Below, piece by piece: positions 18,603-56,466 of a DNA stretch of 64,000 nucleotides. Under the pieces are notes generated by a model. That model did not search any database. It was not told the origin of the DNA and saw nothing but the letters and a program-made list of their open reading frames with translations. Position 1 is the first letter of the stretch. Each line of letters begins with the position of its first letter. The stretch is from positions 1-64,000 of the forward strand of contig QPGO01000054.1 of assembly GCA_008632985.1 (NCBI GenBank), written 5' to 3'. Both the position numbers and the translations under genes were made by a program. This DNA comes from Psammoneis japonica (taxonomy: Eukaryota).

Positions 18603-19159
18603 GGGTCTGCGGGAAATCGCAATTTTTGCCACCTGCTTGTCAAAATTGATGGAATCGCGCCTGCCAGTGCAAAATCTGTCTGACAAGACAAATTTGTTGC
18701 CAACATCACCTCGCAGAAAAGACATTTTCCAGACACAACTTTTGATGCAAAAAACTGTGTGAGACAAAGAAAACTGTGTAAAGACCCGGATGTGTGCAAT
18801 TGAAAATGTCCAAAAATTTGTGTTGTGTGGGAATGTGCCAGGCTTCTACACACAAAGAACCCGCATGTGCATTTTTCAAAATGTGTGACACAACTTTCAA
18901 AATGCACATCCGGGTTGCACTTTTTTGTGTGGATTTTGTGCTGGAAGTCTTGCAGGAATTCTAAAAACACCAGGATGTGCATTTTCGAAACTGTGGCACA
19001 ACTTTGATTTGTGTCAAAAGTTGTGTCAAAGTTGTGTCAAAAATGTGCAAGCTCGTCATGCAGAAAAAGCACGTGTGGCTGCGCTGTTGGCATTGCAAAT
19101 GGTCAAAGCTCACAGAGATTCTCTGTTTTTTGCTTAAAAACACGATTTCCTGCAGACCC
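18603..19159. mobile_element. MITE / non-autonomous DNA transposon inserted in the 9-bp satellite
   Basis: Terminal inverted repeats GGGTCTGCGGGAAATCGCAATTTTT and (reverse complement) GGGTCTGCAGGAAATCGTGTTTTT. Internal CCCGGATGTGCATTTT-like subrepeats. Satellite units lie on both sides. Confidence 0.75.
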
Positions 19160-20447
19160 AGTTTGTCAACTTTGGCAACTTTGGCAACTTTGGCAAGTTT
19201 GTCAACTTTGGTGACTTTGGCAAGTTTGGTGAGTTTGGCAACTTTGGCAAGTTTGTCAACTTTGGTGACTTTGGCAAGTTTGGCAGTTTGACAACTTTGG
19301 CGAGTTTGTCAACTTTGGCAACTTTTGCAAGTTTGGTGACTTTGACAAGTTTGTCAACTTTGGCAAGTTTGGCAAGTTTGGTGACTTGGGCAAGTTTGGC
19401 AACTTTGGTGACTTTGGCAAGTTTGGTGACTTTGGCAAGATTGGCATTGGCAAGTTTGGCGAGTTTGGCAACTTTGGCAAGTTTGGTGACTTTGGCGAGT
19501 TTGGCAACTTTGGCAAGTTTGGCGACTTTGACGAGTTTGGCAACTTTGGCAAGTTTGTCAACTTTGGCAACTTTGGCGAGTTTGGCAACTTTGGCAAGTT
19601 TGGTGACTTTGGCAACTTTGGCGAGTTTGGCAACTTTGGCAACTTTGGCAACTTTGGCAACTTTGTGGCGAGTTTGGCAACTTTGGCGACTTTGGCGAGT
19701 TTGGCAACTTTGGCAACTTTGGCGAGTTTGTCAACTTTGGCAAGTTTGGTGACTTTGGTGACTTTGGCAACTTTGGCAAGTTTGGCAACTTTGGCAAGTT
19801 TGGTGGCAACTTTTGCAAGTTTGGTGACTTTGGCAAGTTTGTCAACTTTGGCAACTTTGGTGAGTTTGGCGACTTTGGTGACTTTGGCAACTTTGGCAAG
19901 TTTGGTGACTTGGGCAAGTTTGGCAACTTTGGCAACTTTGGTGACTTTGGCAAGTTTGGCGACTTTGGCAAGTTTGGAAACTTTGGCGAGTTTGGCAACT
20001 TTGGCAAGTTTGGTGACTTTGGCGAGTTTGGCAACTTTGGCAAGTTTGGTGACTTTGGCAACTTTGGCAGCTTTGGCAACTTTGGTGACTTTGTCAAGTT
20101 GGGCAACTTTGGTGACTTTGGCGAATTTGGCAACTTTGTCAAGTTTGTCAACTTTGGCAACTTTGGTGAGTTTTGTGAGTTTGTCAACTTTGGCAAGTTT
20201 GGCAAGTTTGCCAACTTTGTCAACTGTGTTGAGTGTGTCAACTTTGTCAACTTTGGTGAGTTTTGTGAGTTTGTCAACTTTGGCGAGTTTGGCAAGTTTG
20301 CCATTTTTTGTCAACTTTGGCAAGTTTGGCGAGTTTGTCTGCTTTGGTGAGTTTGGCAACTTTGGCAAGTTTTCCAACTTTGGCAACTTTGGTGACTTTG
20401 GTGAGTTTGACAACTTTGGTGACTCATTTTGCAAGTTTGGCAAGTTG
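19160..20447. repeat. 9-bp tandem satellite array (units GGCAACTTT, GGTGACTTT, GGCAAGTTT, GGCGAGTTT, GTCAACTTT); a few units also at 18577-18602
   Basis: Directly visible 9-nt periodicity over ~1.3 kb. Confidence 0.97.
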
Positions 20448-40540: not shown

Positions 40541-40838
40541 CAGATATAGCATCGCGCCGTCCTTGCGAAAACACTTTGAACTTCTCGTACTTTGGAAGGC
40601 TTGGCTTCATAGCAACGATAGGATCATCCCGGACAAGCGTAGATGATGCTGAACTCATGGTATCTTTGCCGACTAGGGCGATGGGTTGCTTTACATTAGT
40701 CTAGCTAGAGAGTGTAATGTAAGCCCTCAATCAATGGATACTCCCGCTATTTGTGCGCGACTTCGCTGGAGAGGGACACACATACTCAAAACCCAAAAAC
40801 ACTACGCGTTGAATCTGCATACTTCAAGCAGCAGCGAC

Positions 40839-41783
40839 ATGATGATAGTCACCATGCCGGTCCGAACGGTGGTTCTGCTTTGCGTTTTCATGTTGATTCA
40901 TGTAATGATACAGCCTATCGTTGGGTGGGTCATGATGTCATCTCATGCTGGAGGAGATGGAACGGTGTCTCGCAGTAAATTTCTTGATCTAACAAGTGCA
41001 GCTGCTGTGGGATGGATTTCACTCGGCTACTCAACACTGACTCTGCAAGACGCTCATGCGGATGATCTAGAAGGCTTTGTTTCGGCAGGCTTTGTTCGTT
41101 CCGAATGTAAGTAGACGGCTGGACCGAGAGAAAAGCAAATTTCAAGTCATCAGTCCTCGGCTAAACCGCTTACCTAATCTTTCCGTTCATGGTAACAAAA
41201 AGACACAAATTCAATAACAGCATCTAGAGATACCAACATTTCGCCAAAGGAGGTTTATGATAGCATTCTTGGATTGAATATAAGAGCCAAGGACGGAGCG
41301 GCTGCCCTTGACGTTGGTGCTGGAGCCGGTGTTTCTACTCAAACACTCTATCAAATGGGATTTACCAACATTGATGCCTTGGATTGGTCTAGCGATGCAT
41401 GGAACATTAATGTGGTTGAGAATGGACATTGTCCTGATTCGGTGCACTTTTATAACTTGGATGATGAGCGTTTTCTGAATCTGTGGAGACAAAGTATCGC
41501 CAGAAAGTATGACGTGATTGTGTTTAACTTTGCAGTCAATAGCGACAAGGCCACTCAGTTTGCCACCGAACTACTGAAGAGCGATGGAGTCTTGTTGGCG
41601 CCCGTAAATAACCAACGAGACTACTGGCTCAAGCAGTCCTTCCACGTTTTGAACTCTCAAGGCAAACTCTTGTCGAGTGTATCCGATGTCGGTGCTTGGA
41701 GTGTACAGTTTCAACCCGATGTCACCCAGGACACATGCCAAGGTATATGGTGTGCTCCTTTTAATGGATTTCAAAAGCAATGA
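40839..41783 (+). CDS. Class I SAM-dependent methyltransferase-like protein with N-terminal targeting sequence; 2 exons
   Basis: Intron 41107-41202 joins RSE-Y-TNSITASRDTNISPKEVYD. Motif I ALDVGAGAG, IDALD, YDVIVFNF. Start codon is 40839 or 40854. Confidence 0.8.
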
Positions 41784-41958
41784 CCAAAATTGAGCTAGAT
41801 GATTCACGAAAACTGATAATGCTCATGTCACTACTTTTATGTCACGTTCGGACGCTGTGATTAGGATTGTCCCTCGAACGGTCATTGATTGCAGTCAACA
41901 AGACACGAAGCATTCAAGTCCCTACTCTACCGTCTTCCTTCAAGCTTTCTTTCGATGC

Positions 41959-44067
41959 CTATTCGATTCTACCACCTCCACAAGCACAGCAGCTATCCTT
42001 GGCGGTCTTTCCTCCGTTGGCAAAGGAGTCACCAAAGCGCTCACAGTTCAATCCCTGCGCGTACCAGTTACAGTCATAAACGGAGCTGAAGGAGTCATGC
42101 CATCCCTCAGGAAAGTCACTGCACACTCCAACGGGATCTGCAGGTTTGTTCGTGCCGCCTCCGCATGCACAGCAGGCGTCCTTGGCCGTTTCTCCGTTGG
42201 CGTTGGCAAACCGATCTCCGAATTCAGAACAACGGGTACCTTGAGCGTACCACTCGCAGTTATCGCCATCGGCATCGACCCAGTTGATGATATCGCTACA
42301 GCCCTCGATTGGAGCAGGTGGCGGTTCAACACCGCCATCTGTATTCCCTTCTTCAGTCTCTCCTCCATTGAGTAGGTCAAGAGCCGCTTTGGCTTGCACG
42401 AGTCCATAGCCGTACCGATCGTCCCTGCCTTCCGGTCCAAGGTCTTCCGCAGAAGTCTCTAGGATGTTTCGAAGCTCGACAGCACTTGTACCTGGTGCCG
42501 CGCTGAGAAGGAGTGCGCCGACTCCACTAACATGCGGGGCCGACATGCTTGTGCCATCACTACGGCCATATCCTCGACGGTTCCAAAAGCCGCAGATTCT
42601 ACATCCTCCGACGGGAAAGGTACTGAGAATGCCAACACCGGGAGCGGCAATATCGACTTGATCGTTTCTCTGAGAGAAGATGGCGTGCTGCTTGTTTTGT
42701 CGGACTGCCGCAACGGACATTACAGAGCTGTAGCTCGCCGGGTAACTCTTGGCAGTATTGCCATCATTACCTGCCGCTGCCACCAAAAGGACGTCTTCGT
42801 TGTTGAAGAGATTTTCGAATGCGTCTTCCTCCATCGAGCTGTACTCTGGTCCACCAAGACTCATGCTGATGATTCTACTACCACCCTCTTTGCACCTGCG
42901 CGCGGCATCGTAGATTCCAGAAGCGTAGACAAAGCCGCAGTCGCTTCCAAACACCCGAACGGTAAAAATCTCAGCATCTGGTGAGACACCGACTACGCCC
43001 TTGTCATCTCGTTTGGCGGCAATTGTGCCACTATTAGTCGAGAAAACGAATGTAAAGCGTGAGATTGTGTGTCTATGTTGCAATAGTTCGTCGGACACCG
43101 AGAAACTTACCTACAGTGTGTGCCGTGACCGCACTATTAGTTGAGAACACGAATGTAGAGTGGTGAGATGGTGTGTCATCGAGGCAACAGTTCGTCGGAC
43201 AGCGAGAAACTTACCTCATCCTTACTCCACTGGAGACCATCACTGTTGTCAACACCGTCAAGGTTGGTCGTCACAAAGTCGGGGTGATCCTGGTCGATGC
43301 CTGCAGAGAAGAGAGAAAGAAGCAGTAACACAATATTAGAACGTCTCGAGACGCGGCCTTTGCTAGTCATCAATCGCGCTTGCGACTTACCTGTGTCAAT
43401 CACGCAAACTTTGACTCCTTGGCCAGTGATTCCCTTCTCCCACACCTCTGGCGCTTGCACAAGTTCGACACCATACGGCATGTCTTCGGCTAAACGTCGA
43501 TTGCCGCCCTTGTCGAAAAAGTCAGACATATCGCCATTGCTTCGCACAATCATCGGGGTTCGAATGGGATCGTCTACAATGGACTCAATATCAGGGTTGC
43601 TTTCCATAATGGCAATTTCATCCGGCGTGGCAGTAACAACGTACGTGTTGAGTTCTTGAAAGTCATACTCGACTTTGACCTCTGGCTCACCGGCCGCTCT
43701 CTGCAAACTAGCATCCTTCATTGCGTAGTACGTGCTCTTCTTGTGTCCCTCCTTGTAACGCACGATGATTCTTCGAGTACTTTGCATCTTGGCCATATCT
43801 TCAGCCATTAGTTCAATGGTTGTTGGTTCGTTATTCAACTCTCTTTCTTGGTTGCGATGCTCAGGAGAATCTCCACGCAAAGAATTCTGAGTTCATGTTT
43901 CAGGCGATAAGTGAGTCTCAACATTATGGCTGGCACGTCTTTTTACATGCAGTGAAGAAGACAACGGAGATATTTGCACATACCTGTTCGTTTGCCACGA
44001 CAACGTTAGGCCCTGTAGTCACAGCGGCCCAAAGTAGGGATAACAGTGCGGATCGGTGAACCTTCAT
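41959..44067 (-). CDS. Secreted subtilisin-like serine protease (S8) with I9-like propeptide and two C-terminal Cys-rich repeats
   Basis: Signal peptide; VCVIDTG (Asp), HGTH (His, on micro-exon 43111-43133), AAAGN, GTSMSAPHVSG (Ser); ACCACGGG-type repeats. Confidence 0.95.
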
Positions 44068-44514
44068 TTTCGGCGAGGGTACTGTTTACTGAACTGGTTT
44101 GAGAAAATTGTGAGGAAAGCTTGTACTGTACAGCGACGGCAATCCGCGTCAGAGTATCTTCGACGTGATAGTTTGTCTTGCGCGATTGTTAGTTTGGACG
44201 ACTCACAAGTCACAGCTTGTCTGGGCTGTTTTTTTTTTAATCAACCGGAGGTTGTAATGTATCGAAAGTTGTGGTGTGTAAGGATTTGTGAAGCAACACG
44301 GGAAGGAGGTTGCAATCTTGGGTGGCGGGAGCTGAGATTCAATCGTGAGCTTGAGATTTAATTATTCGGATATCAAGAATGATTTCTCGGAAAGGGACTT
44401 TTATTTATAAAAATGAAGGAATAATTATATTGAATTTCCAAAAAAAGTCGCAAGGTGGTGCGTGTGGCGTTCACGATGACGACGTAGCGGCAACAACCGA
44501 ATTCACCACCCAAC

Positions 44515-45630
44515 ATGATGAATGATAGCAACGATGATGGTACAAAGCGCCTTTTCTTTACAACATCTGATCTGATGAATAAGATCAACGAAAACTTGGC
44601 AGAGTTGGAATCCCCGAACGACACAATCAGTCCGCGAGTTGAGCTGCAAAAGCGTTTGCCGGACGGCTCCACTCAACGAGCCGACGAAAAAGAATTGGCC
44701 GCCGCCGACATGCAAACGAAGTTTAAACAGGTGAGGTCTATGATTTTGAAATTACTAATCTTTGTGATATCGATAGCACTAACTTTTCCAACCGTGTGGT
44801 GCATTCATGATTCTGTCTTGTAGGCTGCCGAGCAAGTTGCACGCCTGGATTCACCAGAAGAGAAGATAGCATGGGCCAAGCATCAACGACAAGAGGGAAA
44901 TAAACTGTATGCCACGGGTGACTACCGTGCGGCGATGGATGTGTATCTGACATGTCTTGTGACCAAGACTGACAACGAGGAGTTCCTTACGCAGGTGTTT
45001 CTCCCGACTCTCAACAACCTGGCATTATGCTCTTTGAAACTTTCAATGTGGTCCAAAACGGACGAGTTTTGTACGTTAGCCATCAAAGAGTATAAAAAAG
45101 ATTCAACTCTGCTAGAGAATGCAGAAGCCAAAGACGACGCTACTGACACTCTGGCAAAAATTTACTTTCGAAGAGGGAAGTCGCGTCGATTGCGAGGCAT
45201 GTACAAAGATTCGAGAAGCGACCTAGAGCAGGCCATGATGCTTTTGGATGAAGAGGCATTACAAGAGCGACAGTTAGTTGAAAGAGAAATTGCTCTGGTG
45301 AACAGAGCAGAAATTGAAGGACAGAAGAATGAGGATCGACAGAAACGCGCCATGCGACACTTCCTTGGATCGTCGGCTGATAATGCGGAAGCGCAACCCA
45401 TCTACCCAGAACATACGAGACGACGAAAGTATTCCACTCTTCGATCGAAGAAGTCAGAGTCTGTGGACAAGCCAACTGGCCAGTTCCAGGAAGCACGTGC
45501 AGAACTCTCTTGCTGGGACCGATTCCTCCTGATCGTAGCTGCTCTTGCGGAGAAGGCCTTGAAGATCATAGGTGATGACGAAACACCAGAAAGGATTGCA
45601 CAAGGAGAAATGAAACACCACGATGAATAG
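44515..45630 (+). CDS. TPR-domain protein; 2 exons (intron 44731-44823)
   Basis: RQEGNKLYATGDYRAAMDVY, LNNLALCSLKL and KIYFRRGKSRRLRG TPR helices. Confidence 0.85.
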
Positions 45631-45907
45631 AAAGGCGATGACTACGACACACATGACGCGACTGCGGTGATCACGCTCGTATTATTCAAGGTCGGATATC
45701 TCAATGAAGCTGAGTCTTGGCTTTGGTTGTGAATCCGGGATTAAATGCGACTCGAAAAACAAGACAGAACGTCACGTCCATTTTTCTGTAGAACTGTAGA
45801 GATCTCCACGTGACTAGTTTCGAAGCATTAATTTTTCGTCTCACAGAAACATCTCACAATTTGCAAAATTGAAGGGGACAAAGAGTAGTTCGAGAAACCA
45901 GTGCAGA

Positions 45908-47834
45908 ATGAGGTTTGGATCAAAAGTCATTGCGTCGCTGTTGTCGCTAGCCATTATCACTGGCACGGGTGTGTTTGCCCAAGATGATCACAAGGTGAGG
46001 TTTGGAGGGCGTCTTATGTTTGGGGCGGGTTTCACCATGTTAACATTTTCTTCTTTCTTTTGCTATCTTACGGTAGGTCGGATTGCGAGGCGGAGCTGAT
46101 GGTCAAGATTCGGTGCAAGAGGCATCTGCTGTCGACGTCCATGGACGAAAGCTTACAACTGCAATCAAGCCCCCGAAAGACCCTGACTTTGCGGTAACGA
46201 ACCAGAAGAGTCCATCTCCTCGTCGAGTCATTGTCCGGTACAAACCGGGATACAAGAAACAAACGATGAGCATCATGCGGGCAGCCAACAAGAAGCGCGC
46301 TGTAGGCGAGCCTGAGATTGAAGTGGCGTACGACTTTGATGAGCTGAATACTATGGTTATCAATGCTATGGAAGACGAGATTGCATACCTCATCAACAGC
46401 CCAGAGATTGAAGGCATCGAGGACGATCCGATTCGCTACCCCATGCATGTTGAAGGGAGCAATGTTGATATCTCTGAGCTCTTCGTCGAAGGATCCAGGA
46501 AGCTGGCAGAAACTATCCCACCGGGAGTCACGGCGGTGCAAGCCCCTGAGCTATGGGCAAAAGGTATCAAAGGGTCGGGCGTAAAAGTCTGTGTTATTGA
46601 CACAGGAATCGATCGGGAGCACCCTGACTATGTGTCTTCAAACCTAAGTGGCCCAAGCAACACCAACGCCAGGAACAGGTGGTACGAGGACGGTTGCGGT
46701 CATGGCTCCCACGTCAGGTAAGTTTCTCTGTGTCTGACGAACTGCTGCCTCATTGACACAACATCTCACCGCTTTGCATTTCTTTTCTCAACTAATAGTG
46801 GCACTGTGGCAGCTGCAGCGAATGGCAATGGCGTCGTCGGAGTAGCTCCAGATGCAGAAATCTTTACCGTTCGTGTCTTTGGCAAGGAATGCGGAATCAT
46901 CTTTGGTTCGAGCCTGGTAAATGCTGCTCGCACTTGCCGAGACAACGGAGTAAAGATTATCAGCATGAGTGTTGGTGGCCCCGTCAGGAATTTCTTTGAG
47001 GAAATTGGTTTCAATTCACTCGTGAACAGAGACGACATGTTGATTATCGCGGCAGCCGGAAACGCGGGCGACTCAAGCAAGAGTTTTCCGGCTAGCTACG
47101 GCACTGTCATGTCAGTGGCTGCGGTGAACTCTACAAAGGACCACGCCTTTTTCTCTCAGGCGAACAATCAGGTTAGCATCGCTGCTCCTGGGGTCGATGT
47201 TCTGAGCACCTTTCCTGTCGGGGGATGCGAGATCTGTCGGGACAATATCGATGGTTTTGGTGCCATTAGTGGGACAAGTATGGCTACCCCTCACGTTAGT
47301 GGCGTTGCGGCTTTACTCATGAGCGCCTCTCCGAGTAGCACATCTGCCGATATTCGGGACGCTCTCGAGCTTTCTGCCGAAGACCTTGGAGAATCGGGAC
47401 GCGACGACATGTACGGCAACGGCTTCGTGCAGGCAAGCGCGGCTCTCCGGTTGCTTAAAGGAGAAGACGAAGGGAACACTGAAGAAGGCGCAACTTGCAA
47501 CGACGTTCCGGGATGGCATGATTCTGACGGTGAACAGTATACTTGTTCGTGGTACGCGCAGGAAGGAAACTGCGCATCTTATGGCAACAGGTTTGAGAAC
47601 GATGGATTTACTGCCAATTCGGCATGTTGCGCTTGTGGTGGTGGTGAAGCTGAATCATCAGGGCCTGGCGTTTGCGTCGACTTTCCGGCTTGGAACGATG
47701 CTTTCGGATCTTTCTATGATTGCAACTGGTATAGCCAGGAAAGCAACTGTGAACGTTTTGGCGACACTTCTGCCAATAATGGCAGCACGGCGAATGAAGC
47801 TTGTTGCGCCTGCGGAGGAGGGAGACTTGAGTAG
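45908..47834 (+). CDS. Secreted subtilisin-like serine protease (S8), paralog of 41959-44067; introns 45995-46076 and 46718-46798
   Basis: Signal peptide; VIDTGID, HGSHV, AAAGN, GTSMATPHVSG; two ACCACGGG repeats. Confidence 0.95.
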
Positions 47835-48470
47835 GTAACGAAGATCACAGCTTGAATCTGCCATGGTGGCTTCATGCTGTTCACCTCTTGTTCGAAGTAG
47901 ATACAGGTAGTAGGTAAAGAAGTAGTCTTATTCGGAACAGACTCGGAATGGATTTCCATCATGATAACGTAGGGCTATGGTAGCTACCTAGCTAGAGGGC
48001 CTAGCTCTCTAGCTAGCTAGTAGTAGCGCAGTTTCACCACATCCATTCTCACTTCTGTTGAAAGCGATTTGGAATCTGGAATCTTGGAATGAGCGAACAA
48101 GTGCAGTATTCAAAAAGTGTATTCCGGATCTTTAAAATCTCAACGACAACTGTCAAAATTTTTATTTATAATTGTGTAGAAATGCAGATAGTGTGAAATT
48201 AAAATTTTCTATGTATCTGAAAAGTTCTTAGGTTAGTGCATACGCGAGAGAAAAGCCAAAATTTGATATGTTTCGTACCAGACATTGAACATATTTGATA
48301 TGATCTCAACGCCAGCAATTCAACGGCCGCTCGAAGCTCCCCTCACAATTTCCTCACCAAACAGAGTGCACCATCACAACAAAAAGCATCACGCCACGTT
48401 GGAACTAAGGAACGGCACCAAAGCGCAACAAAACAGATTCATAAGTTGACAAGAGAAGCTGCCGATTAGG

Positions 48471-51400
48471 ATGAGGACAAAGAGGCTCGGGGCCTATTTT
48501 GGCCTGTTCTTGCTGATTGGTGGACGCTTTCTCTGCGCAGCCGAAAATGATCACACGCCTTCGTTCGGTCTCGTCCAAAGAGACAATGGCGAAGCGAACA
48601 GTGAAGTACATTCCAAGATCAAATCAGACGATTTTGACGAGAGCATTGCCAGACTCTTAAGTGGTAAGGGAGGGAAAAAAGGTGGTTGGGGAGCGCCATG
48701 GAAGTACTCCAGACCGACCGAGAAAGGATATCTCAAACCGTCGATCCCCCCAGAATGCTACTGTCCTATCCCCGGCGGAAGCAAAAACCTTGGTAAAGAA
48801 AATGGTGGCTTCAGGAATGGTGGAAAGAAAGGAAAAGGATTTGGCAAGAAAAAGAGAAAGAAAGGCGAGAGATTTCTTCAAGATTTTGATGAACCTGTTT
48901 CAAGATATGATGCACCTAGGGAGCGCAACGAGCCTGACAAATATCATTTCTACGAGACCTACGAGCGCATCGATGTCTGTGATAACATTGTATGGGTGTG
49001 TCCAGATGCTTTGGAGAATCATTATGATGTTCTCTACTGTCCTGTAGTCAAGAACAAAGGTGCCATCGATACAAGCCTGCTCTACCCAAGTAAATCGAAA
49101 GTGTTAAGACACCTCCCCAAAGGCCATCCACTCTGTCTGTGTCCTAAAGATTCGGGTTATGCTCTGAAACCACCCCACACGGTTACATACCTTGCAACGA
49201 GCCCATCGAAAACAGCAACAGGATACTCTCGCAGGAGGAAAGGACGTTGGAGATATGGCAAGTACGGGAAGAATAGGTTTAATGGGAAGTACCGAGAAAC
49301 TCCGGCAAAAAGAATAGTTTCAAAAGGATACACCAAAGGGAAGGGGTTCATCGTTCTGCCACCTTCTCACTGCTTCAAGAAGCCAACTCCGCCACCAACC
49401 ACCAGCTCCCCCACGGCAATTCCACCCCTTCCGCCCTTTGCACCCCCAACGCCACCTCCGACCGATTCCCCGACAGCAATTCCACCCCTTCCGCCTTTCT
49501 CACCTCCCACACCGCCACCGACACCTAGTCCAACGCCCCCACCTACACCGCCACCGACACCTGATCCGACGCCCCCACCTACGCCGCCGCCGACACCTGA
49601 TCCAACGCCCCCACCTACACCGCCACCGACACCTAGTCCAACGCCCCCACCTACACCGCCACCGACACCTGATCCGACTCCCCCACCTACACCTACACCT
49701 ACACCTACGCCGCCTCCCACTCCAACGCCAACCACGCCTCCAACAGATGAGCCGACACCGCCACCAACTCCACCGCCCACTGCGACGCCTTCCTCAACGC
49801 CGACGAATATTCCTCCACTTCCTCCAGTCGCCCCGCCGACACCGCCTCCATCTTCAAGCCCTGCACCAAGCAATAGACCGAGTGCTATCCCGAGTGCTAG
49901 GCCTGAGCCAAGTGTCATTCCAAGCGCTATCCCGAGTGCTAGTCCTGCGCCAAGCAGCATCCCAAGCGAAGTGCCGAGTGTAAGTCCGGCACCAAGTACT
50001 TCGCCTAGCGCTATCCCGAGCGCGAGTCCTGCACCAAGTGATTCTCCCAGTTCAGAGCCGAGCGTCAGTTTAGCTCCATCGGAGTCTGTTGAGTGTGAAG
50101 TCGATGTAAGTTTTGTTATCTGACATACTATACGTCATCTTACTGGTGAAGCTTTCAAACTCAAACTTGTTCACAAAATGCTTTTGAAACTGAACAACAG
50201 GTCGAAATAACCTGCACGACCGGCGAAGGCGACCTCACCCAGAACTGCACCGACATAACAAGTCCAGATTCGCAGTGCGCTGGATATTCGAGCTTGACAT
50301 TCATCTACGACCCACGTCCTTGCGCGGAAGCAACGAACTCACAAAGTCAGACCACTATTTGTGAGGAAGATAACGGTGGTATCCCTGGAATCAATGACAC
50401 AGTTCAAGTTGTTTGCACTGAAAAAGATACAGACAACGCGCTTTTCAATGATCAGGTCGACAAAGGCGACACGGTCCAGATCTCCAACGTACCCAGTTCC
50501 GTTGAATGTACCATCCGCAATGTGACGAACCAGACCATACTTTATCAAAGGGTGACCTTTTTGACTGACGAACCCTTCAACTTGCTTCTCAACGATGAAT
50601 ATGGGAGTCTTACGCTCAAGGGCTGCACGGATGAGGAAGGAAATCAGCAACCAAGAGAATGCTTGATCGACGTGGACTACTTGATCACAGTCGAAAACGT
50701 CGGAAGTGACAACATGACATTAACACAAGCAGATCTTATATTGGACGGTATGGATCCGATTGATTTGCTCCCTGAGCTAGATACGGAGCTAGAACCAGAC
50801 CAAATCACAAACACCACAGAGACAGTGACTATCGACATTTGCGTTGAGGCGAACTATACAGCTAAGGTGGAGGTGGAAGCTAACCCACCGTTCGGTCCAA
50901 ACACTTGTGATGACGAAGATGGTTACGTCATTGAAATAGACCCCTTGCCAACGCCCTCACCGACACCAGTGCCGTCAGATATGCCAAGCCTGTCCCCAAG
51001 CGCATTACCAAGTGCCAGCCCGGCTCCAAGTTTAGCCCCAAGCAACGCTCCGAGCTCCAGCCCGGAGCCTACAGTCCACGATAGTGCTGCCCCAAGCTCA
51101 AGTCCAGCTCCAAGTGATTCTCCAAGTCGCGAACCAAGTTCAAGCCCAGCTCCGAGTAATGTGCCGAGCAACATGCCCAGCGCAAGCCCTGCCCCAAGCA
51201 GGACGCCTAGCAGCGAGCCGAGTGCTAGTCCAGAGCCGAGCTCCGTGCCGAGTAATGCGCCGAGCTCCAGTCCTGCACCTACAGTTCATGCTAGTAATCC
51301 ACCAAGCTCAAGTCCGGCTCCGAGTGATTCGCCAAGTGCAGCTCCTAGTTCAAGTCCAGTACCAAGTGATGCGCCAAGTGAAATACCTAGTGCAAGTCCC

Positions 51401-54400
51401 GCCCCCAGCAACGCACCAAGCACCGAGCCAAGCGCAAGTCCAGCCCCAAGCAATGCACCAAGCACTGAGCCAAGTGTTAGTCCCGCCCCAAGTTCGTCTC
51501 CAAGCGGCGTTCCTAGCTCGAGCCCGGCACCGACCACACATGATAGTTTTCCACCAAGCTCAAGTCCGGCTCCGAGTGATTCGCCAAGTGCATCTCCTAG
51601 TTTAAGTCCAGCACCAAGTGATGCGCCAAGTGAAATACCTAGTGCAAGTCCCGCACCCAGCAACGCACCAAGCACCGAGCCAAGCGCAAGTCCTGCCCCA
51701 AGCAATGCACCAAGCACCGAGCCAAGCGCAAGTCCTGCCCCGAGTTCAGAGCCAAGTAGCGCGCCGAGCTCGAGTCCTGCACCAACAGTCCATGGTAGTG
51801 CTGCGCCAAGCTCAAGTCCGGCACCGAGCAATTCGCCAAGTGCAGCCCCTAGTACAAGCCCAGCACCAAGCGACTCTCCCAGTTCAGAGCCGAGCGTCAG
51901 TTTAGCTCCGTCGGAATCTATTTTCTGTGCTGTCGATGTAAGTCTCGCTATCCGAAGGCCTAATTTTTCCTGATGGCGAAACCTTTCCTTCTTAATCTTT
52001 CCCTGCTTATTCCCTTTGAAACTTAACAACAGGTCGAGATAACCTGCACGACCGGCGAAGGCGACCTCACGCAGAACTGCACCGACATTACAAGTCCAGA
52101 TTCGCAGGTAGCAGGTTATTCGAACTTAACATTCGTCTACGACCCACGTTCTTGCGCGGAAGCAACGAACTCACAAAGTCAGACCAGCATTTGCGAGGAA
52201 GATAACGGTGGTATCCCTGGAATCAATGACACAGTTCAAGTTGTTTGCAATGAAAAAGACACAAACAATATTCTTTTCAATGATCAGGTTGTCAAAGGCG
52301 ACACCGTTCAACTCTCCAACGTGCCCAGTTCCGTTGAATGTACCATCCGCAATGCCACGAACCAGACCATTATTTATCAAAGGGTGACATTTATGACTGA
52401 TGAACCCTTTAACCTGCTTCTCAACGATGAATACGGGAGTCTTACGCTCAAGGGCGCCACGGATGCAAACGAACCACCCAGGGAGTGTTTGATCGACGTT
52501 GACTACTTGATTACAGTCGAGAACGTCGGAAGTGACAACATGACAATAACGCAAGCAGACCTTACATTGGGCGACATGGATCCGATTGATTTGCTCCCTG
52601 AGCTAGACACTGAGCTAGCACCAGACGAAATCACAAACACCACAGAGACAGTGACTATCGATAGATGCGTTGCGGCTAACTACACAGCCATTGCAGAGGT
52701 TGAAGCTAACCCACCGTTCGGTCAAAATACTTGCGAGGACGACGACGACTACGTCTTTGAAATAGACCCTTTGCCAACGCCGCAACCGACGCCGGCGCCG
52801 TCACAGAGTCCAAGCCAGTCTCCAACAGTAATGCCTTTGATCCCCCCTCCGCCGCCAACCACGACACCCTCCGTTAGCCCGGCTCCAAGTGAATACCCCA
52901 GCGATGCACCAAGCTCTAGCCCAATGCCAAGCGACGCTCTAAGCAATGCGCCAAGTGCAAGTCCGGCTCCAAGCACTGAGGGAAGCGCAGAGCCAAGTGC
53001 AAGTCCTGCTCCAAGCAATGTACCAAGCACCGTGCCAAGTGAAAGTCCCGCCCCGAGTTCGCCTCCAAGCGGCGTTCCTAGCTCGAGCCCGGCACCGACC
53101 ACACATGATAGTTTTCCACCAAGCTCAAGTCCGGCTCCGAGTGATTCGCCAAGTGCAGCTCCTAGTTCAAGTCCAGCACCAAGTGATGCGCCAAGTGAAA
53201 TACCTAGTGCAAGTCCTGCCCCCAGCAACGCACCAAGCACCGAGCCAAGCGCAAGTCCAGCCCCAAGCAATGCACCAAGCACTGAGCCAAGTGTTAGTCC
53301 CGCCCCAAGTTCGTCTCCAAGCGGCGTTCCTAGCTCGAGCCCGGCACCGACCACACATGATAGTTTTCCACCAAGCTCAAGTCCGGCTCCGAGTGATTCG
53401 CCAAGTGCAGCTCCTAGTTTAAGTCCAGCACCAAGTGATGCGCCAAGTGAAATACCTAGTGCAAGTCCCGCACCCAGCAACGCACCAAGCACCGAGCCAA
53501 GCGCAAGTCCTGCCCCAAGCAATGCACCAAGCACCGAGCCAAGCGCAAGTCCTGCCCCGAGTTCAGAGCCAAGTAGCGCGCCGAGCTCGAGTCCTGCACC
53601 AACAGTCCATGGTAGTGCTGCGCCAAGCTCAAGTCCGGCACCGAGCAATTCGCCAAGTGCAGCCCCTAGTACAAGCCCAGCACCAAGCGACTCTCCCAGT
53701 TCAGAGCCAAGCGTCAGTTTAGCTCCGTCGGAATCTATTTTCTGTGCTGTCGATGTAAGTCTCGCTATCCGAAGGCCTAATTTTTCCTGATGGCGAAACC
53801 TTTCCTTCTTAATCTTTCCCTGCTTTGAAACTTATCAACAGGTCGAGATAACCTGCACGACCGGCGAAGGCGACCTCGCGCAGAACTGCACCGACATTAC
53901 AAGTCCAGATTCGCAGGTAGCAGGTTATTCGAACTTAACATTCGTCTACGACCCACGTTCTTGCGCGGAAGCAACGAACTCACAAAGTCAGACCAGCATT
54001 TGCGAGGAAGATAACGGTGGTATCCCTGGAATCAATGACACAGTTCAAGTTGTTTGCAATGAAAAAGACACAAACAATATTCTTTTCAATGATCAGGTTG
54101 TCAAAGGCGACACCGTTCAACTCTCCAACGTGCCCAGTTCCGTTGAATGTACCATCCGCAATGCCACGAACCAGACCATAATTTATCAAAGGGTGACATT
54201 TATGACTGATGAACCCTTTAACCTGCTTCTCAACGATGAATACGGGAGTCTTACGCTCAAGGGCGCCACGGATGCAAACGAACCACCCAGGGAGTGTTTG
54301 ATCGACGTTGACTACTTGATTACAGTCGAGAACGTCGGAAGTGACAACATGACAATAACGCAAGCAGACCTTACATTGGGCGACATGGATCCGATTGATT

Positions 54401-56466
54401 TGCTCCCTGAGCTAGACACGGAGCTAGCACCAGACGAAATCACAAACACCACAGAGACAGTGACTATCGATAGATGCGTTGAGGGGAACTACACAGCCAT
54501 TGCAGAGGTTGAAGCTAACCCACCGTTCGGTCAAAATACTTGCGAGGACGACGACGACTACGTGTTTGAAATAGACCCTTTGCCAACGCCGCAGCCGACG
54601 CCGGCGCCGTCACAGACTCCAAGCCTGTCCCCAAGTTCATTACCAAGTGCCAGTCCAGCTCCAAGTCTGCCCCCAAGCGACGCTCCGAGCTCCAGCCCGG
54701 CACCTACAGTCCATGATAGTGCTGCCCCAAGCTCTAGTCCGGCTCCAAGTGATTTACCAAGTGCAGCACCAAGTTCAAGTCCGGCACCGAGTGATGCTCC
54801 AAGCAACCTACCAAGTGCAAGTCCTGCCCCTAGTGGCGCACCAAGCACAGGGCCAAGTGCAAGTCCGGCTCCGAGTTCCGCACCGAGTAATGCTCCGAGT
54901 GAGAGTCCGTTTCCGAGTGCAGCCCCTAGTGCGGCACCGAGCTCAAGCCCACAGCCCACAATTCATGATAGTGCGACACCGAGCTCAAGTCCAGCGCCAA
55001 GCGAATCGCCAAGCTCGGTTCCAACCGCAAGCCCGGCTCCAAGTAACTCTCCGAGTGCAGCACCGAGCTCAAGTCCGGCGCCGAGCGAATCGCCAAGCTC
55101 GGTTCCAACCGCAAGCCCGGCTCCAAGTAACTCTCCGAGTGCAGCACCGAGCTCGAGTCCGGCGCCGAGCGACTCGCCAAGCTCGGTTCCAACCGCAAGT
55201 CCGGCTCCAAGTAACTCTCCGAGTGCAGCGCCAAGCTTAAGTCCGGCGCCGAGCGAAAAACCAAGTGCAGTGCCAAGCTCAAGCCCGGCACCGAGTGACT
55301 CTCCGAGTGCATTCCCTAGCAGTAGTCCTGCACCTAGTGCTATTCCGAGTCAGCAACCTAGTGTAAGCTTTGTGCCCACGGAAGCTGCTGTATGCGATGT
55401 CGAAGTAAGTGAATGCTGGCGTCTCCCGTTGTAGATATCATCACTTCTGATTCGTTTCTCACCGTGCCCCGTTTCATCCGATGTTTGCATTACTTCGCAG
55501 GTGGACCTCAATTGTACCTACAATGGCGAGGATTGTAAGAACATCACACCTCCTGACGACCCACAATGCGAAGGATACCCCGATTTGACCTTCGTATACG
55601 AACCTCGGAAATGTGCTGAGATGAAAAATTCTCAAGGTGACAACTGCGATTGCGTAGACAACAGCAACAGCACCATCACCATTCCAAGTAATGAGAGTGC
55701 TTTTATTCTGTGCAGAGGTCCTCCGGATTCAACGGTCTATTTTGGAGACCTCGTCAATCCTGGTGACACCATTATGATGAAAGGGGTCCAATCTTTGTTG
55801 TTCTGTATCATTTCAGACCCAGATTACCCCTATACCATTTACCAGACGGTGGAGTTTCTAACAGAAGGAGTTGATTTTCTGTTGAAAGATCAGGTGGGAA
55901 GTCTCACGTTGGTGGGTTGCGAAGATGAAGATGAAGCGAAAAATTGCTTGATTGATATTGACTATTACATCACCATCGAAAATGTTGGTGGCATTGTCAT
56001 GAATATCACCTTAGCGGATCTTTTCTTGAATACGACGACGTCAACGACTTTTGAGTCGGAATACACGAACTTGCTTGACCAGCTCAATAAGACCGTCCTT
56101 GAAGTTGACGAGCTTGTTGACACAACGGTGTCAAAAGAAATTGATAGTTGCATCTTGGCGAAACATACAGCTCAGGTATTTGTTGAAGCGCTCCCACCTT
56201 ATGGTCAGAGGAAATGCCAAGACGAAGACGACCATGAGTTTGAAACGGATCCTATTCCGACTAGAATGCCGTCTGCTAGCCCGGCACCCAGCAGCGTACC
56301 GAGTTCAATGCCAAGTGTAAGTTTGATGCCCACCGAATGCCAGGGCATCTCGTTGGAGTTACGAAATTTCTTGATTGCAAACAACGGCACAGAATTTCTT
56401 CAACGCCCACCAGCTCGTGGCCGGTACCTACGAGGAGGTACCGGAGCGCTGTGCAATCCTAACTAA
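48471..56466 (+). CDS. Giant (~2,540 aa) secreted modular Pro/Ser/Thr-rich protein, likely cell-surface, cell-wall or mucilage associated
   Basis: Exons 48471-50105, 50201-51937, 52033-53754, 53842-55404 and 55501-56466, all phase 0, total 7,623 nt. Signal peptide, K/G-rich segment, PTPPPT repeats, and four acidic Cys-containing domains separated by PSxxP linkers. Confidence 0.85.

What the first reader, a model, noticed from the sequence alone, without database searches (positions are those of the whole stretch)
43031..43214. Twin near-identical introns flanking a 23-nt micro-exon carrying the catalytic His: intron copying or introner-like element
Introns 43134-43214 (81 nt) and 43031-43110 (80 nt) both read GTAAGTTTCTCG.TGTCCGACGAACT...GACACAC.ATCTCAC...TACATTCGT.TTCTC.ACTAATAG. 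They flank the exon encoding CGHGTHCS. The paralog has only one such intron (46718-46798, ~84% identical to the first by manual count), at the second position, and is uninterrupted at the first. All three sit in an AG|TG context. The introns appear more similar than the surrounding paralogous exons, suggesting recent intron transposition, a mobile intron family, or local conversion. The minus-strand gene also has an unrelated extra intron (43301-43390).
Basis: partly seen in the sequence, partly recalled or inferred. Interest (0 to 1): 0.75.

Follow-up and report, generated by a model that had tools for sequence, protein, structure and literature searches.

The report
One intron copied among old paralogs
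A single 81-base intron was copied fairly recently into four places in three long-diverged protease genes of a diatom, twice within one gene only 23 bases apart, giving an unusually clear example of two rarely documented but known routes by which genes gain introns.

Summary
Introns A (43134-43214) and B (43031-43110) flank a 23-nt exon with the catalytic His of an S8 subtilase (G1). The neighbouring paralog G2 has copy P at B's site. A fourth copy, Q, lies at the same site in a third paralog, G3 (contig C38). No other copy was found in the genome. The copies are 84-88% identical, whereas fourfold sites of the host genes are saturated (28-31%); in a control duplicate pair, introns and fourfold sites match (88% vs 89%). 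Differences are scattered single changes, as expected of recent neutral copies, with no structure or Rfam match. It is not an introner: one paralogy group, no terminal repeats. Best reading: homology-anchored intron transfer among paralogs plus a same-gene copy, probably by template switching at the shared AG|TG flanks; reverse splicing is the main rival for A. A run that behaves like RNA splices P exactly, but its contig over G1 keeps A and B, so their splicing is inferred, not shown. Both processes are known; this scan noted three other twin-intron cases in this genome. The unusual part is one intron showing both, across genes only about 61% identical in DNA.

The parts
41959..44067 (-). G1: secreted S8 subtilase gene, 586 codons; exons 44067-43984, 43886-43391, 43300-43215, 43133-43111, 43030-41959
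   Evidence: Open spliced frame; Peptidase_S8 and Inhibitor_I9 matches; exon 1/2 junction inferred from frame and homology
43134..43214 (-). Intron A, 81 nt, phase 0, 6 nt before the catalytic His codon; site found in no other family member resolved
43111..43133 (-). 23-nt micro-exon with the catalytic His (HGTH motif); colinear with uninterrupted sequence in G2 and G3, not a duplicated segment
   Evidence: subtilisin alignment of the relative P0001
43031..43110 (-). Intron B, 80 nt, phase 2 in the Ser codon at His+5
43215..43217 (-). Glu codon GAG just before intron A; Gly in G2, G3 and the six closest outside relatives; its AG may have arrived with the intron
43301..43390 (-). Unrelated 90-nt intron of G1, absent from G2 and G3
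43887..43983 (-). G1 first intron (97 nt), same position as the first introns of G2 and G3, no sequence likeness left: internal control
   Evidence: identities 0.41-0.45 against shuffled means 0.43-0.47
45908..47834 (+). G2: paralogous S8 subtilase gene, 587 codons; exons 45908-45994, 46077-46717, 46799-47834
   Evidence: both introns skipped by a contig of run X2
46718..46798 (+). Intron P, 81 nt, same site as B; a further copy Q lies outside the window at G000:C38:220079-220159 (-) in paralog G3
   Evidence: exact 81-nt GT..AG skip
45995..46076 (+). G2 first intron (82 nt), old shared position, control

Best explanation
One ordinary spliceosomal intron was copied three times in a short period, long after G1, G2 and G3 had diverged. 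Shown: four copies, their sites, their youth relative to the host genes, confinement to the three closest paralogs. Inferred: (1) between paralogs the intron moved by homology-directed copying (intron transfer). A broken DNA end or a cDNA of the intron-less gene paired with the intron-bearing paralog in the well-conserved exon block just downstream, switched template at the shared TGGCAC, copied the intron and returned to its own gene within two bases, so almost no exon sequence was converted. (2) Copy A arose from the same kind of slip inside G1, using the TG that begins the Cys codon 23 nt upstream. (3) The exonic AG in front of each copy may have been carried along, which would explain Gly to Glu at A and the AGT Ser codon at B, P and Q. 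The copies have since decayed neutrally (2-6 private changes each) and are removed as normal GT-AG introns; the intron itself has no function beyond being spliced.
For: Introns 84-88% (interior 80-88%) against fourfold sites 30/96, 28/93, 28/100 (Fisher). Control pair L008/L009: introns 70/80 and 86/97, fourfold sites 103/116. First introns of the same three genes are at shuffle level. 18 of 22 variable columns are singletons, 1 of 22 has three states; a fixed-plus-saturated model expects 64% (P 9e-9), a uniform recent star fits; no clustering of changes (p 0.81, 0.36). Tree: G2 groups with outside proteins P0001/P0002 (100/99), G3 with P0003 (96/94), so the paralogs are old. P0003 seems to be called from inside intron 1 of a genomic contig and P0001 lacks the signal exon, yet both run through the His site without a break. 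Copies occur in exactly the three closest paralogs (60-66% aa; next 53% or less), at one site, while about 2,800 matches to the 8-nt target are expected genome-wide by chance. The best-conserved exon block lies 50-100 nt downstream (20-22 of 25 identical at 51-75). Repeat unit of A and B is AG + intron + TG; that 4-mer occurs 10 times in 1,582 nt of G1. Gly at His-3 in 10 of 11 filtered relatives, Glu in none; Ser at His+5 is AGT in 3 of 3 intron bearers, TCN in 5 of 5 intron-less own paralogs that have Ser.
Against: Recombination between exons only 60-63% identical is expected to be inefficient (own knowledge). No co-converted tract is visible: synonymous identity near the site 6/11, 7/12, 4/12 against 70/153, 57/156, 60/165 elsewhere. 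The AG clue is soft: Glu occurs at His-3 in 6 of 23 other own paralogs, G1 has other private changes nearby, the five TCN cases are about three independent genes of other subfamilies, P0002 and P0003 already have Ser and their codons are unknown. Genomic origin of P0001/P0003 is inferred from their N-termini only. An unrelated intron sits at the same site in L017, so the site may be old. A is not closer to B than to Q; only 2 columns group A with B, against 1 each for the other pairings, so donor and order are unresolved. The X2 contig over G1 (41800-43355) retains both A and B. Only one control gene pair was measured.
Confidence: 0.55

Rival explanations
1. RNA route: the excised intron was reverse-spliced into a pre-existing AG|TG (in the same transcript or an R-loop for A; possibly into paralogous transcripts for P and Q), then fixed by reverse transcription and recombination.
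For: All copies are exact, sense-strand, GT-to-AG units with identical flanking dinucleotides. Same-gene pairs in Oikopleura were ascribed to this route (PMC3879977 passage); reverse splicing into R-loop DNA is proposed in PMC10996645 (passages). Local events recur in this genome according to three unchecked earlier notes.
Against: It gives no reason why the same codon of two other paralogs was hit among about 2,800 chance targets. No intron-exon complementarity above shuffles (35, 117, 56, 99 of 200). It cannot change exon bases, so Gly to Glu at A must be a prior coincidence. G1 keeps its neighbouring introns, so recombination would have had to be very local.
Confidence: 0.22
2. The B site held an intron in the common ancestor of G1-G3; the old sequences were recently overwritten by one copy (intron replacement or conversion), and only A is a true gain.
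For: L017 has an unrelated intron at the same site, and L008, L009, L019, L050 (one base before) and L029 (one base after) have others. AG|T may be an old proto-splice site. PMC3443670 (passage) reports that most homologous introns in Mycosphaerella lay at already occupied positions.
Against: Needs independent loss in the lineages of P0001 and P0003 if these are genomic; 23 of 32 resolved other paralogs have no intron in this stretch. Needs the same copying between diverged paralogs anyway.
Confidence: 0.1
3. The intron is old and held by purifying selection (a regulatory or non-coding RNA element); A is a single duplication of it.
For: Length nearly constant (81, 80, 81, 81); all pairs about equally distant; a 5-bp stem is possible in all four.
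Against: Column pattern rejects fixed-plus-saturated sites (P 9e-9); changes are unclustered; folding z from -0.06 to 0.81; covariation term unfavourable, 1 of 9 pairs with a double change; no Rfam match over A or B at E up to 10. Uniform slowing of every site about tenfold is not excluded by these tests but has no known cause.
Confidence: 0.05
4. A low-copy introner or MITE-like element inserting with an AG target duplication.
For: Every copy is flanked AG..AG; star-like divergence suggests a burst. Genome searches are seed-based lower bounds.
Against: 4 copies, all in one paralogy group, in two DNA searches and five pattern searches; 2-mismatch pattern 85 hits against 103 control; no inverted termini (best 6 of 15); three hits at one codon are not what a transposon gives.
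Confidence: 0.05
5. G1 is a dead or mis-assembled copy and A/B are not spliced.
For: The X2 contig covering 41800-43355 keeps both introns.
Against: G1 is an intact 586-codon frame with the full triad after splicing, pN 0.27 against pS 0.72-0.80; X1 contig spans the locus; the X2 contig continues 845 nt beyond 41800, into the convergent + strand gene, so it may be antisense read-through (inference); contigs drop rare forms.
Confidence: 0.03

Closest known systems
Same-gene duplications (SGD) of near-identical introns, non-segmental type, in fungi (PMC3609843, parts 1-2 of 3 of the text read) and the four same-gene pairs in Oikopleura dioica (seen only as cited in PMC3879977)
   Same: Two homologous introns in one gene, ordinary length, no stable structure, no duplicated exon; that paper suggests same-transcript transposition or transfer between paralogs for them.
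   Different: Here the same intron also stands in two other, silent-site-saturated paralogs, one on another contig, and the new site coincides with a Gly to Glu change that supplies the exonic AG.
Intron transfer between paralogs (PMC3443670, section 11 and Table 1 passage: 3 events, in Mycosphaerella, Aspergillus, Chironomus, as of 2012)
   Same: An intron at the same position in paralogs, younger than the genes.
   Different: Two transfers plus a shifted same-gene copy of one intron; donor and recipients only about 61% identical in exon DNA; no co-converted tract beyond at most 2 nt. I did not read the three original cases, so I cannot say how diverged their paralogs were.
Introners and introner-like elements (PMC12130899, PMC4457414, PMC3879977; passages read)
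   Same: Homologous introns with likeness ending at the splice sites; sense orientation; burst-like divergence.
   Different: Four copies, one paralogy group, same codon; no inverted termini, no strong fold. The published introner pipeline discards such families by design.
[quoted passage not shown]
   Same: A new intron next to a parent intron, reusing its signals.
   Different: No duplicated exon segment and a complete copy including the donor site; shared unit is only AG + intron + TG. A duplication followed by an exact 23-nt deletion would look the same as a template switch and cannot be told apart.

Membership tests
Introner (operational definition of PMC12130899) | At least 4 copies in genes of different paralogy groups | tested here: not met
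   4 copies, all in one S8 group; searches are lower bounds
Introner (operational definition of PMC12130899) | Likeness confined to the intron, not running into exons | tested here: met
   blastn blocks of 85 nt at 85-88% against 65-75% exon blocks
Introner, DNA-transposon type | Terminal inverted repeats and target-site duplication | tested here: not met
   Best end-to-end match 6 of 15; AG..AG flanks cannot be told from ordinary splice consensus
Fungal introner-like element | High copy number, longer than ordinary introns, stable predicted structure | tested here: not met
   4 copies; 80-81 nt against 79-126 nt for other introns of the family; z -0.06 to 0.81
Same-gene duplicated intron (SGD / NII), non-segmental | Two homologous introns in one gene | tested here: met
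   68 of 81 columns
Same-gene duplicated intron (SGD / NII), non-segmental | Flanking exon sequence not duplicated | tested here: met
   Only 2 nt shared on each side; protein colinear with paralogs
Same-gene duplicated intron (SGD / NII), non-segmental | Both introns spliced in RNA | tested here: inconclusive
   X2 contig retains both; frame requires removal of both
Same-gene duplicated intron (SGD / NII), non-segmental | One site is new (absent in relatives) | tested here: met
   A's site is empty in G2, G3 and in all 32 other family loci resolved, of 40 examined; no G1 ortholog with DNA was found
Intron transfer between paralogs | Same-site introns in paralogs younger than the gene duplication | tested here: met
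Intron transfer between paralogs | Recipient site was intron-less before | tested here: inconclusive
   P0001 and P0003 unbroken at the site and probably genomic, DNA not available; L017 has an unrelated intron there
Intron transfer between paralogs | Recombination footprint (co-converted flanking exon) | tested here: inconclusive
   No tract; possible 2-nt AG import
Tandem genomic duplication (AGGT or potato type) | Duplicated exonic segment forms part of the new intron | tested here: not met
Intron-encoded RNA (snoRNA, riboswitch and other Rfam families) | Match to a covariance model or covarying structure | tested here: not met
Peptidase S8 (subtilase) host genes | Asp-His-Ser triad and PF00082 match | tested here: met

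The most novel reading that the evidence does not exclude
A plain spliceosomal intron with no coding capacity can 'home': it is delivered in a target-sequence-directed way to the cognate site of paralogs that are too diverged for ordinary recombination, brings its own exonic AG with it (rewriting two coding bases), and sometimes lands at a near-cognate site in the same gene. With the three other twin-intron cases noted in this genome, this diatom would have a general, active short-homology copying route for introns that introner screens filter out by design.
Probability: 0.12. Interest if true: 0.85.

Novelty: new variant of a known kind. Interest (0 to 1): 0.52.

Why it matters
The source of most new introns cannot be named. 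Here one intron has a traceable family of four, with internal clocks (saturated silent sites, a dead-level old intron in the same genes, a matched control pair). It documents intron transfer, for which a 2012 review listed three cases, between strongly diverged paralogs, together with a same-gene copy. It also offers a rare discriminating marker: if the exonic AG came with the intron, copying was by template switch or recombination and not by reverse splicing, and one PCR across sister strains can decide it. Introner screens discard paralog-confined families, so this class may be undercounted.

Tried and rejected
Sequencing runs: no RNA holder listed; all three runs are one sample and one study. 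X2 has no cover over 43356-44458 and X3 laid nothing; neither is evidence. Exact 24-base pattern in metagenome contigs: 0 matches. Related loci in metagenomes: 7 of 186 candidates confirmed, one diatom-type, apparently spliced, none with the intron. Translated intron plus exon start as a protein query: 1 candidate, none scored. 19 of 228 fetched proteins lack the His motif; none begins with intron-like read-through (by eye). Covariance model R1 was built but could not be run on this genome, so the copy count rests on seeds and patterns. Profile scans of the window and fetched loci found nothing beyond the four copies (best other E 0.1). The 8 other genome sites with the same first 12 bases are unrelated downstream (34-46 matches in 82-85 columns). 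The 3' pattern missed P itself (2 mismatches), so it is a weak search. No other twin intron in 95 sequences, 350 kb with overlaps. Intron-exon pairing of the group II type: not above shuffles. Tandem duplication with retained exon: rejected. In one search the G2 first intron was taken one base too long; repeated correctly. One search crashed after the intron table and was redone. Literature searches that found no paper on this case or on intron gain in diatom subtilases; most subscription papers are not in the library, and no supplements were opened, so the introner datasets of PMC12130899 may bear on this genome.

Full report
1. Observation. On the minus strand, 43214-43134 (A, 81 nt) and 43110-43031 (B, 80 nt) are GT..AG segments around a 23-nt exon; 46718-46798 (P, 81 nt, plus strand) is a third copy. 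A-B and A-P share 68 of 81 columns, B-P 67; shuffles give 0.50 on average, 0.63 at most. Removing both A and B gives a 586-codon secreted S8 subtilase, G1; any other splice choice stops the frame before or just after the His. The neighbour G2 (587 codons) has P at B's site only. Outside relatives that carry names are diatoms, for example P0004 from Asterionellopsis glacialis.

2. How many copies. Two DNA searches of the 91-Mb genome gave the same four matches at E up to 10; the fourth, Q, lies at B's site in a third paralog, G3, on contig C38. An exact pattern gave 4 against 0 control; a core pattern with 2 mismatches gave 85 against 103 control, with only these 4 exact and none at 1 mismatch; other patterns added only unrelated sites. 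These are seed-based lower bounds. G1, G2 and G3 are the three closest members (60-66% aa) of a family with 70 matches. Of 40 other family loci examined around the His, 23 have no intron, 9 have unrelated introns (offsets +3, +16, +17, +18 nt from the His codon) and 8 were not resolved; none has one at A's site.

3. The introns are much younger than the genes. Pairwise identity is 84-88%, 80-88% without the splice ends. The catalytic domains are 60-63% identical in DNA, and fourfold sites 30/96, 28/93 and 28/100, near saturation (Fisher p 4e-9, 6e-13, 3e-13). Two controls: in the duplicate pair L008/L009, introns are 70/80 and 86/97 identical and fourfold sites 103/116; the first introns of G1-G3, at one shared position, are at shuffle level. 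In a tree of 27 proteins (G1-G3 and 24 of the 120 hits), G2 joins P0001/P0002 (100/99) and G3 joins P0003 (96/94); G1 is unresolved. P0003 begins with six residues that align with the translated end of G3's intron 1, and P0001 starts inside exon 2, which suggests genomic contigs; both run unbroken through the His site. This is indirect.

4. Not a conserved element. Of 22 variable columns, 18 are singletons, 3 are two-and-two and 1 has three states. Fixed sites plus saturated free sites would give 64% multi-state columns (P 9e-9); a star with 8-9% change per copy fits. Changes are unclustered. Folding is at shuffle level, covariation is absent, Rfam has nothing over A or B. The tree of the four is a star: 2 columns join A with B, 1 each supports the other pairings, so the donor is unknown and A need not come from B.

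5. Junction anatomy. B, P and Q share AG|TGGCAC; A has AG|TG. The A/B repeat is exactly AG + intron + TG. No longer converted tract exists, but the best-conserved exon block lies just downstream. The TG after A belongs to a Cys found in all close relatives. The AG before A belongs to a Glu codon where G2, G3 and 10 of 11 filtered relatives have Gly (Gly 74, Glu 1 of 120). The AG before B, P and Q makes Ser AGT, whereas 82 of 120 relatives have Ala there and the 5 intron-less own paralogs with Ser use TCN. Against this clue: Glu occurs there in 6 of 23 other own paralogs, G1 has further private changes nearby, and P0002/P0003 have Ser with unknown codons.

6. Splicing. Run X2 is on record as 'DNA?', but one contig skips three GT..AG introns in two adjacent genes, P among them, exactly; I read it as RNA. 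Its contig over G1 (41800-43355) keeps A and B. It extends 845 nt further, into a convergent plus-strand gene, so it may be antisense read-through, and contigs drop rare forms; still, splicing of A and B is inferred only from the frame and from selection on G1 (pN 0.27, pS 0.72-0.80). X1 spans the locus in one contig, but may be the source of the assembly.

7. Mechanism. Hitting one codon in three paralogs, among about 2,800 chance 8-mers, needs gene-level homology, so B, P and Q are best explained by intron transfer anchored downstream, with a template switch at TGGCAC and a return within two bases. A is best explained by the same slip within G1, which would also carry the AG; reverse splicing is the alternative if the Glu came first. 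Weights: copying by template switch or recombination 0.55, reverse splicing 0.22, replacement at an old site 0.10, conserved intron 0.05, low-copy introner 0.05, dead or mis-assembled gene 0.03.

8. Comparison with what is known. Non-segmental same-gene duplicates are described in fungi, 82 introns in 24 species, half of them segmental (PMC3609843, parts 1-2 of 3 read), and four pairs in Oikopleura (cited in PMC3879977, passages). Intron transfer had three listed events in 2012 (PMC3443670, passages and section 11). The introner definition needs different paralogy groups (PMC12130899, passages), which fails here. Parallel gains within short windows are known for fungal elements (PMC4457414, passages). 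The potato duplication case differs (PMC4974935, abstract). Reverse splicing into R-loops is a proposal (PMC10996645, passages). The original Oikopleura, Mycosphaerella, Chironomus and yeast papers were not read. Ten searches showed no paper on this case. Earlier notes of this scan report three more twin-intron genes in this genome (unchecked), which lowers the surprise of the A/B pair; no note on transfer among saturated paralogs came up.

9. Verdict. Real; A/B is a member of a known kind; the family of four works like intron transfer and is probably a case of it; not an introner. New variant of a known kind, interest 0.52.

Noticed in passing
L008, L009, L019, L050 (+16), L017 (+17), L029 (+18), L010, L011, L046 (+3); offsets in nt from the catalytic His codon: Unrelated introns occupy three consecutive base positions at the His+5 codon across the S8 family of this genome: a hot spot of parallel gain or intron sliding.
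   Followed up: partly
window 44459-47889: One X2 contig joins the TPR-like gene (weak TPR match below cut-off) and G2; this may be read-through or overlapping ends, and a contig does not show a single transcript.
   Followed up: no
window 40677-41783 (+) and G1: A convergent gene with a methyltransferase-like motif (label by recall, not searched) ends 175 nt from G1's stop; an X2 contig runs from it across G1 unspliced, suggesting antisense read-through.
   Followed up: partly
G1, G2, G3 C-termini (window 41959-42300 and 47480-47834): Each protease ends in two or three Cys-rich repeats (W.D.DG...C.WY...C..FG..F.N.G.TA..ACC.CGGG); Pfam gave no match to them.
   Followed up: no
G000:C19:813402 and C111:254833 (L010, L011); C20 (L046): L010 and L011 are identical over the stretch read and L046 has the same intron: very recent duplicates or uncollapsed haplotypes.
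   Followed up: no
window 49400-55500: Three units of about 1.8 kb, 85-99% alike, each with Pro/Ser-rich 42-nt repeats: an internally triplicated surface-protein-like gene.
   Followed up: no
window 19086-20300: Array of about 100 copies of a 9-nt unit.
   Followed up: no
   Followed up: no
L024 (G000:C13:494475-497867): This S8 paralog appears to change frame twice downstream of the His motif and may be broken or mis-called.
   Followed up: no
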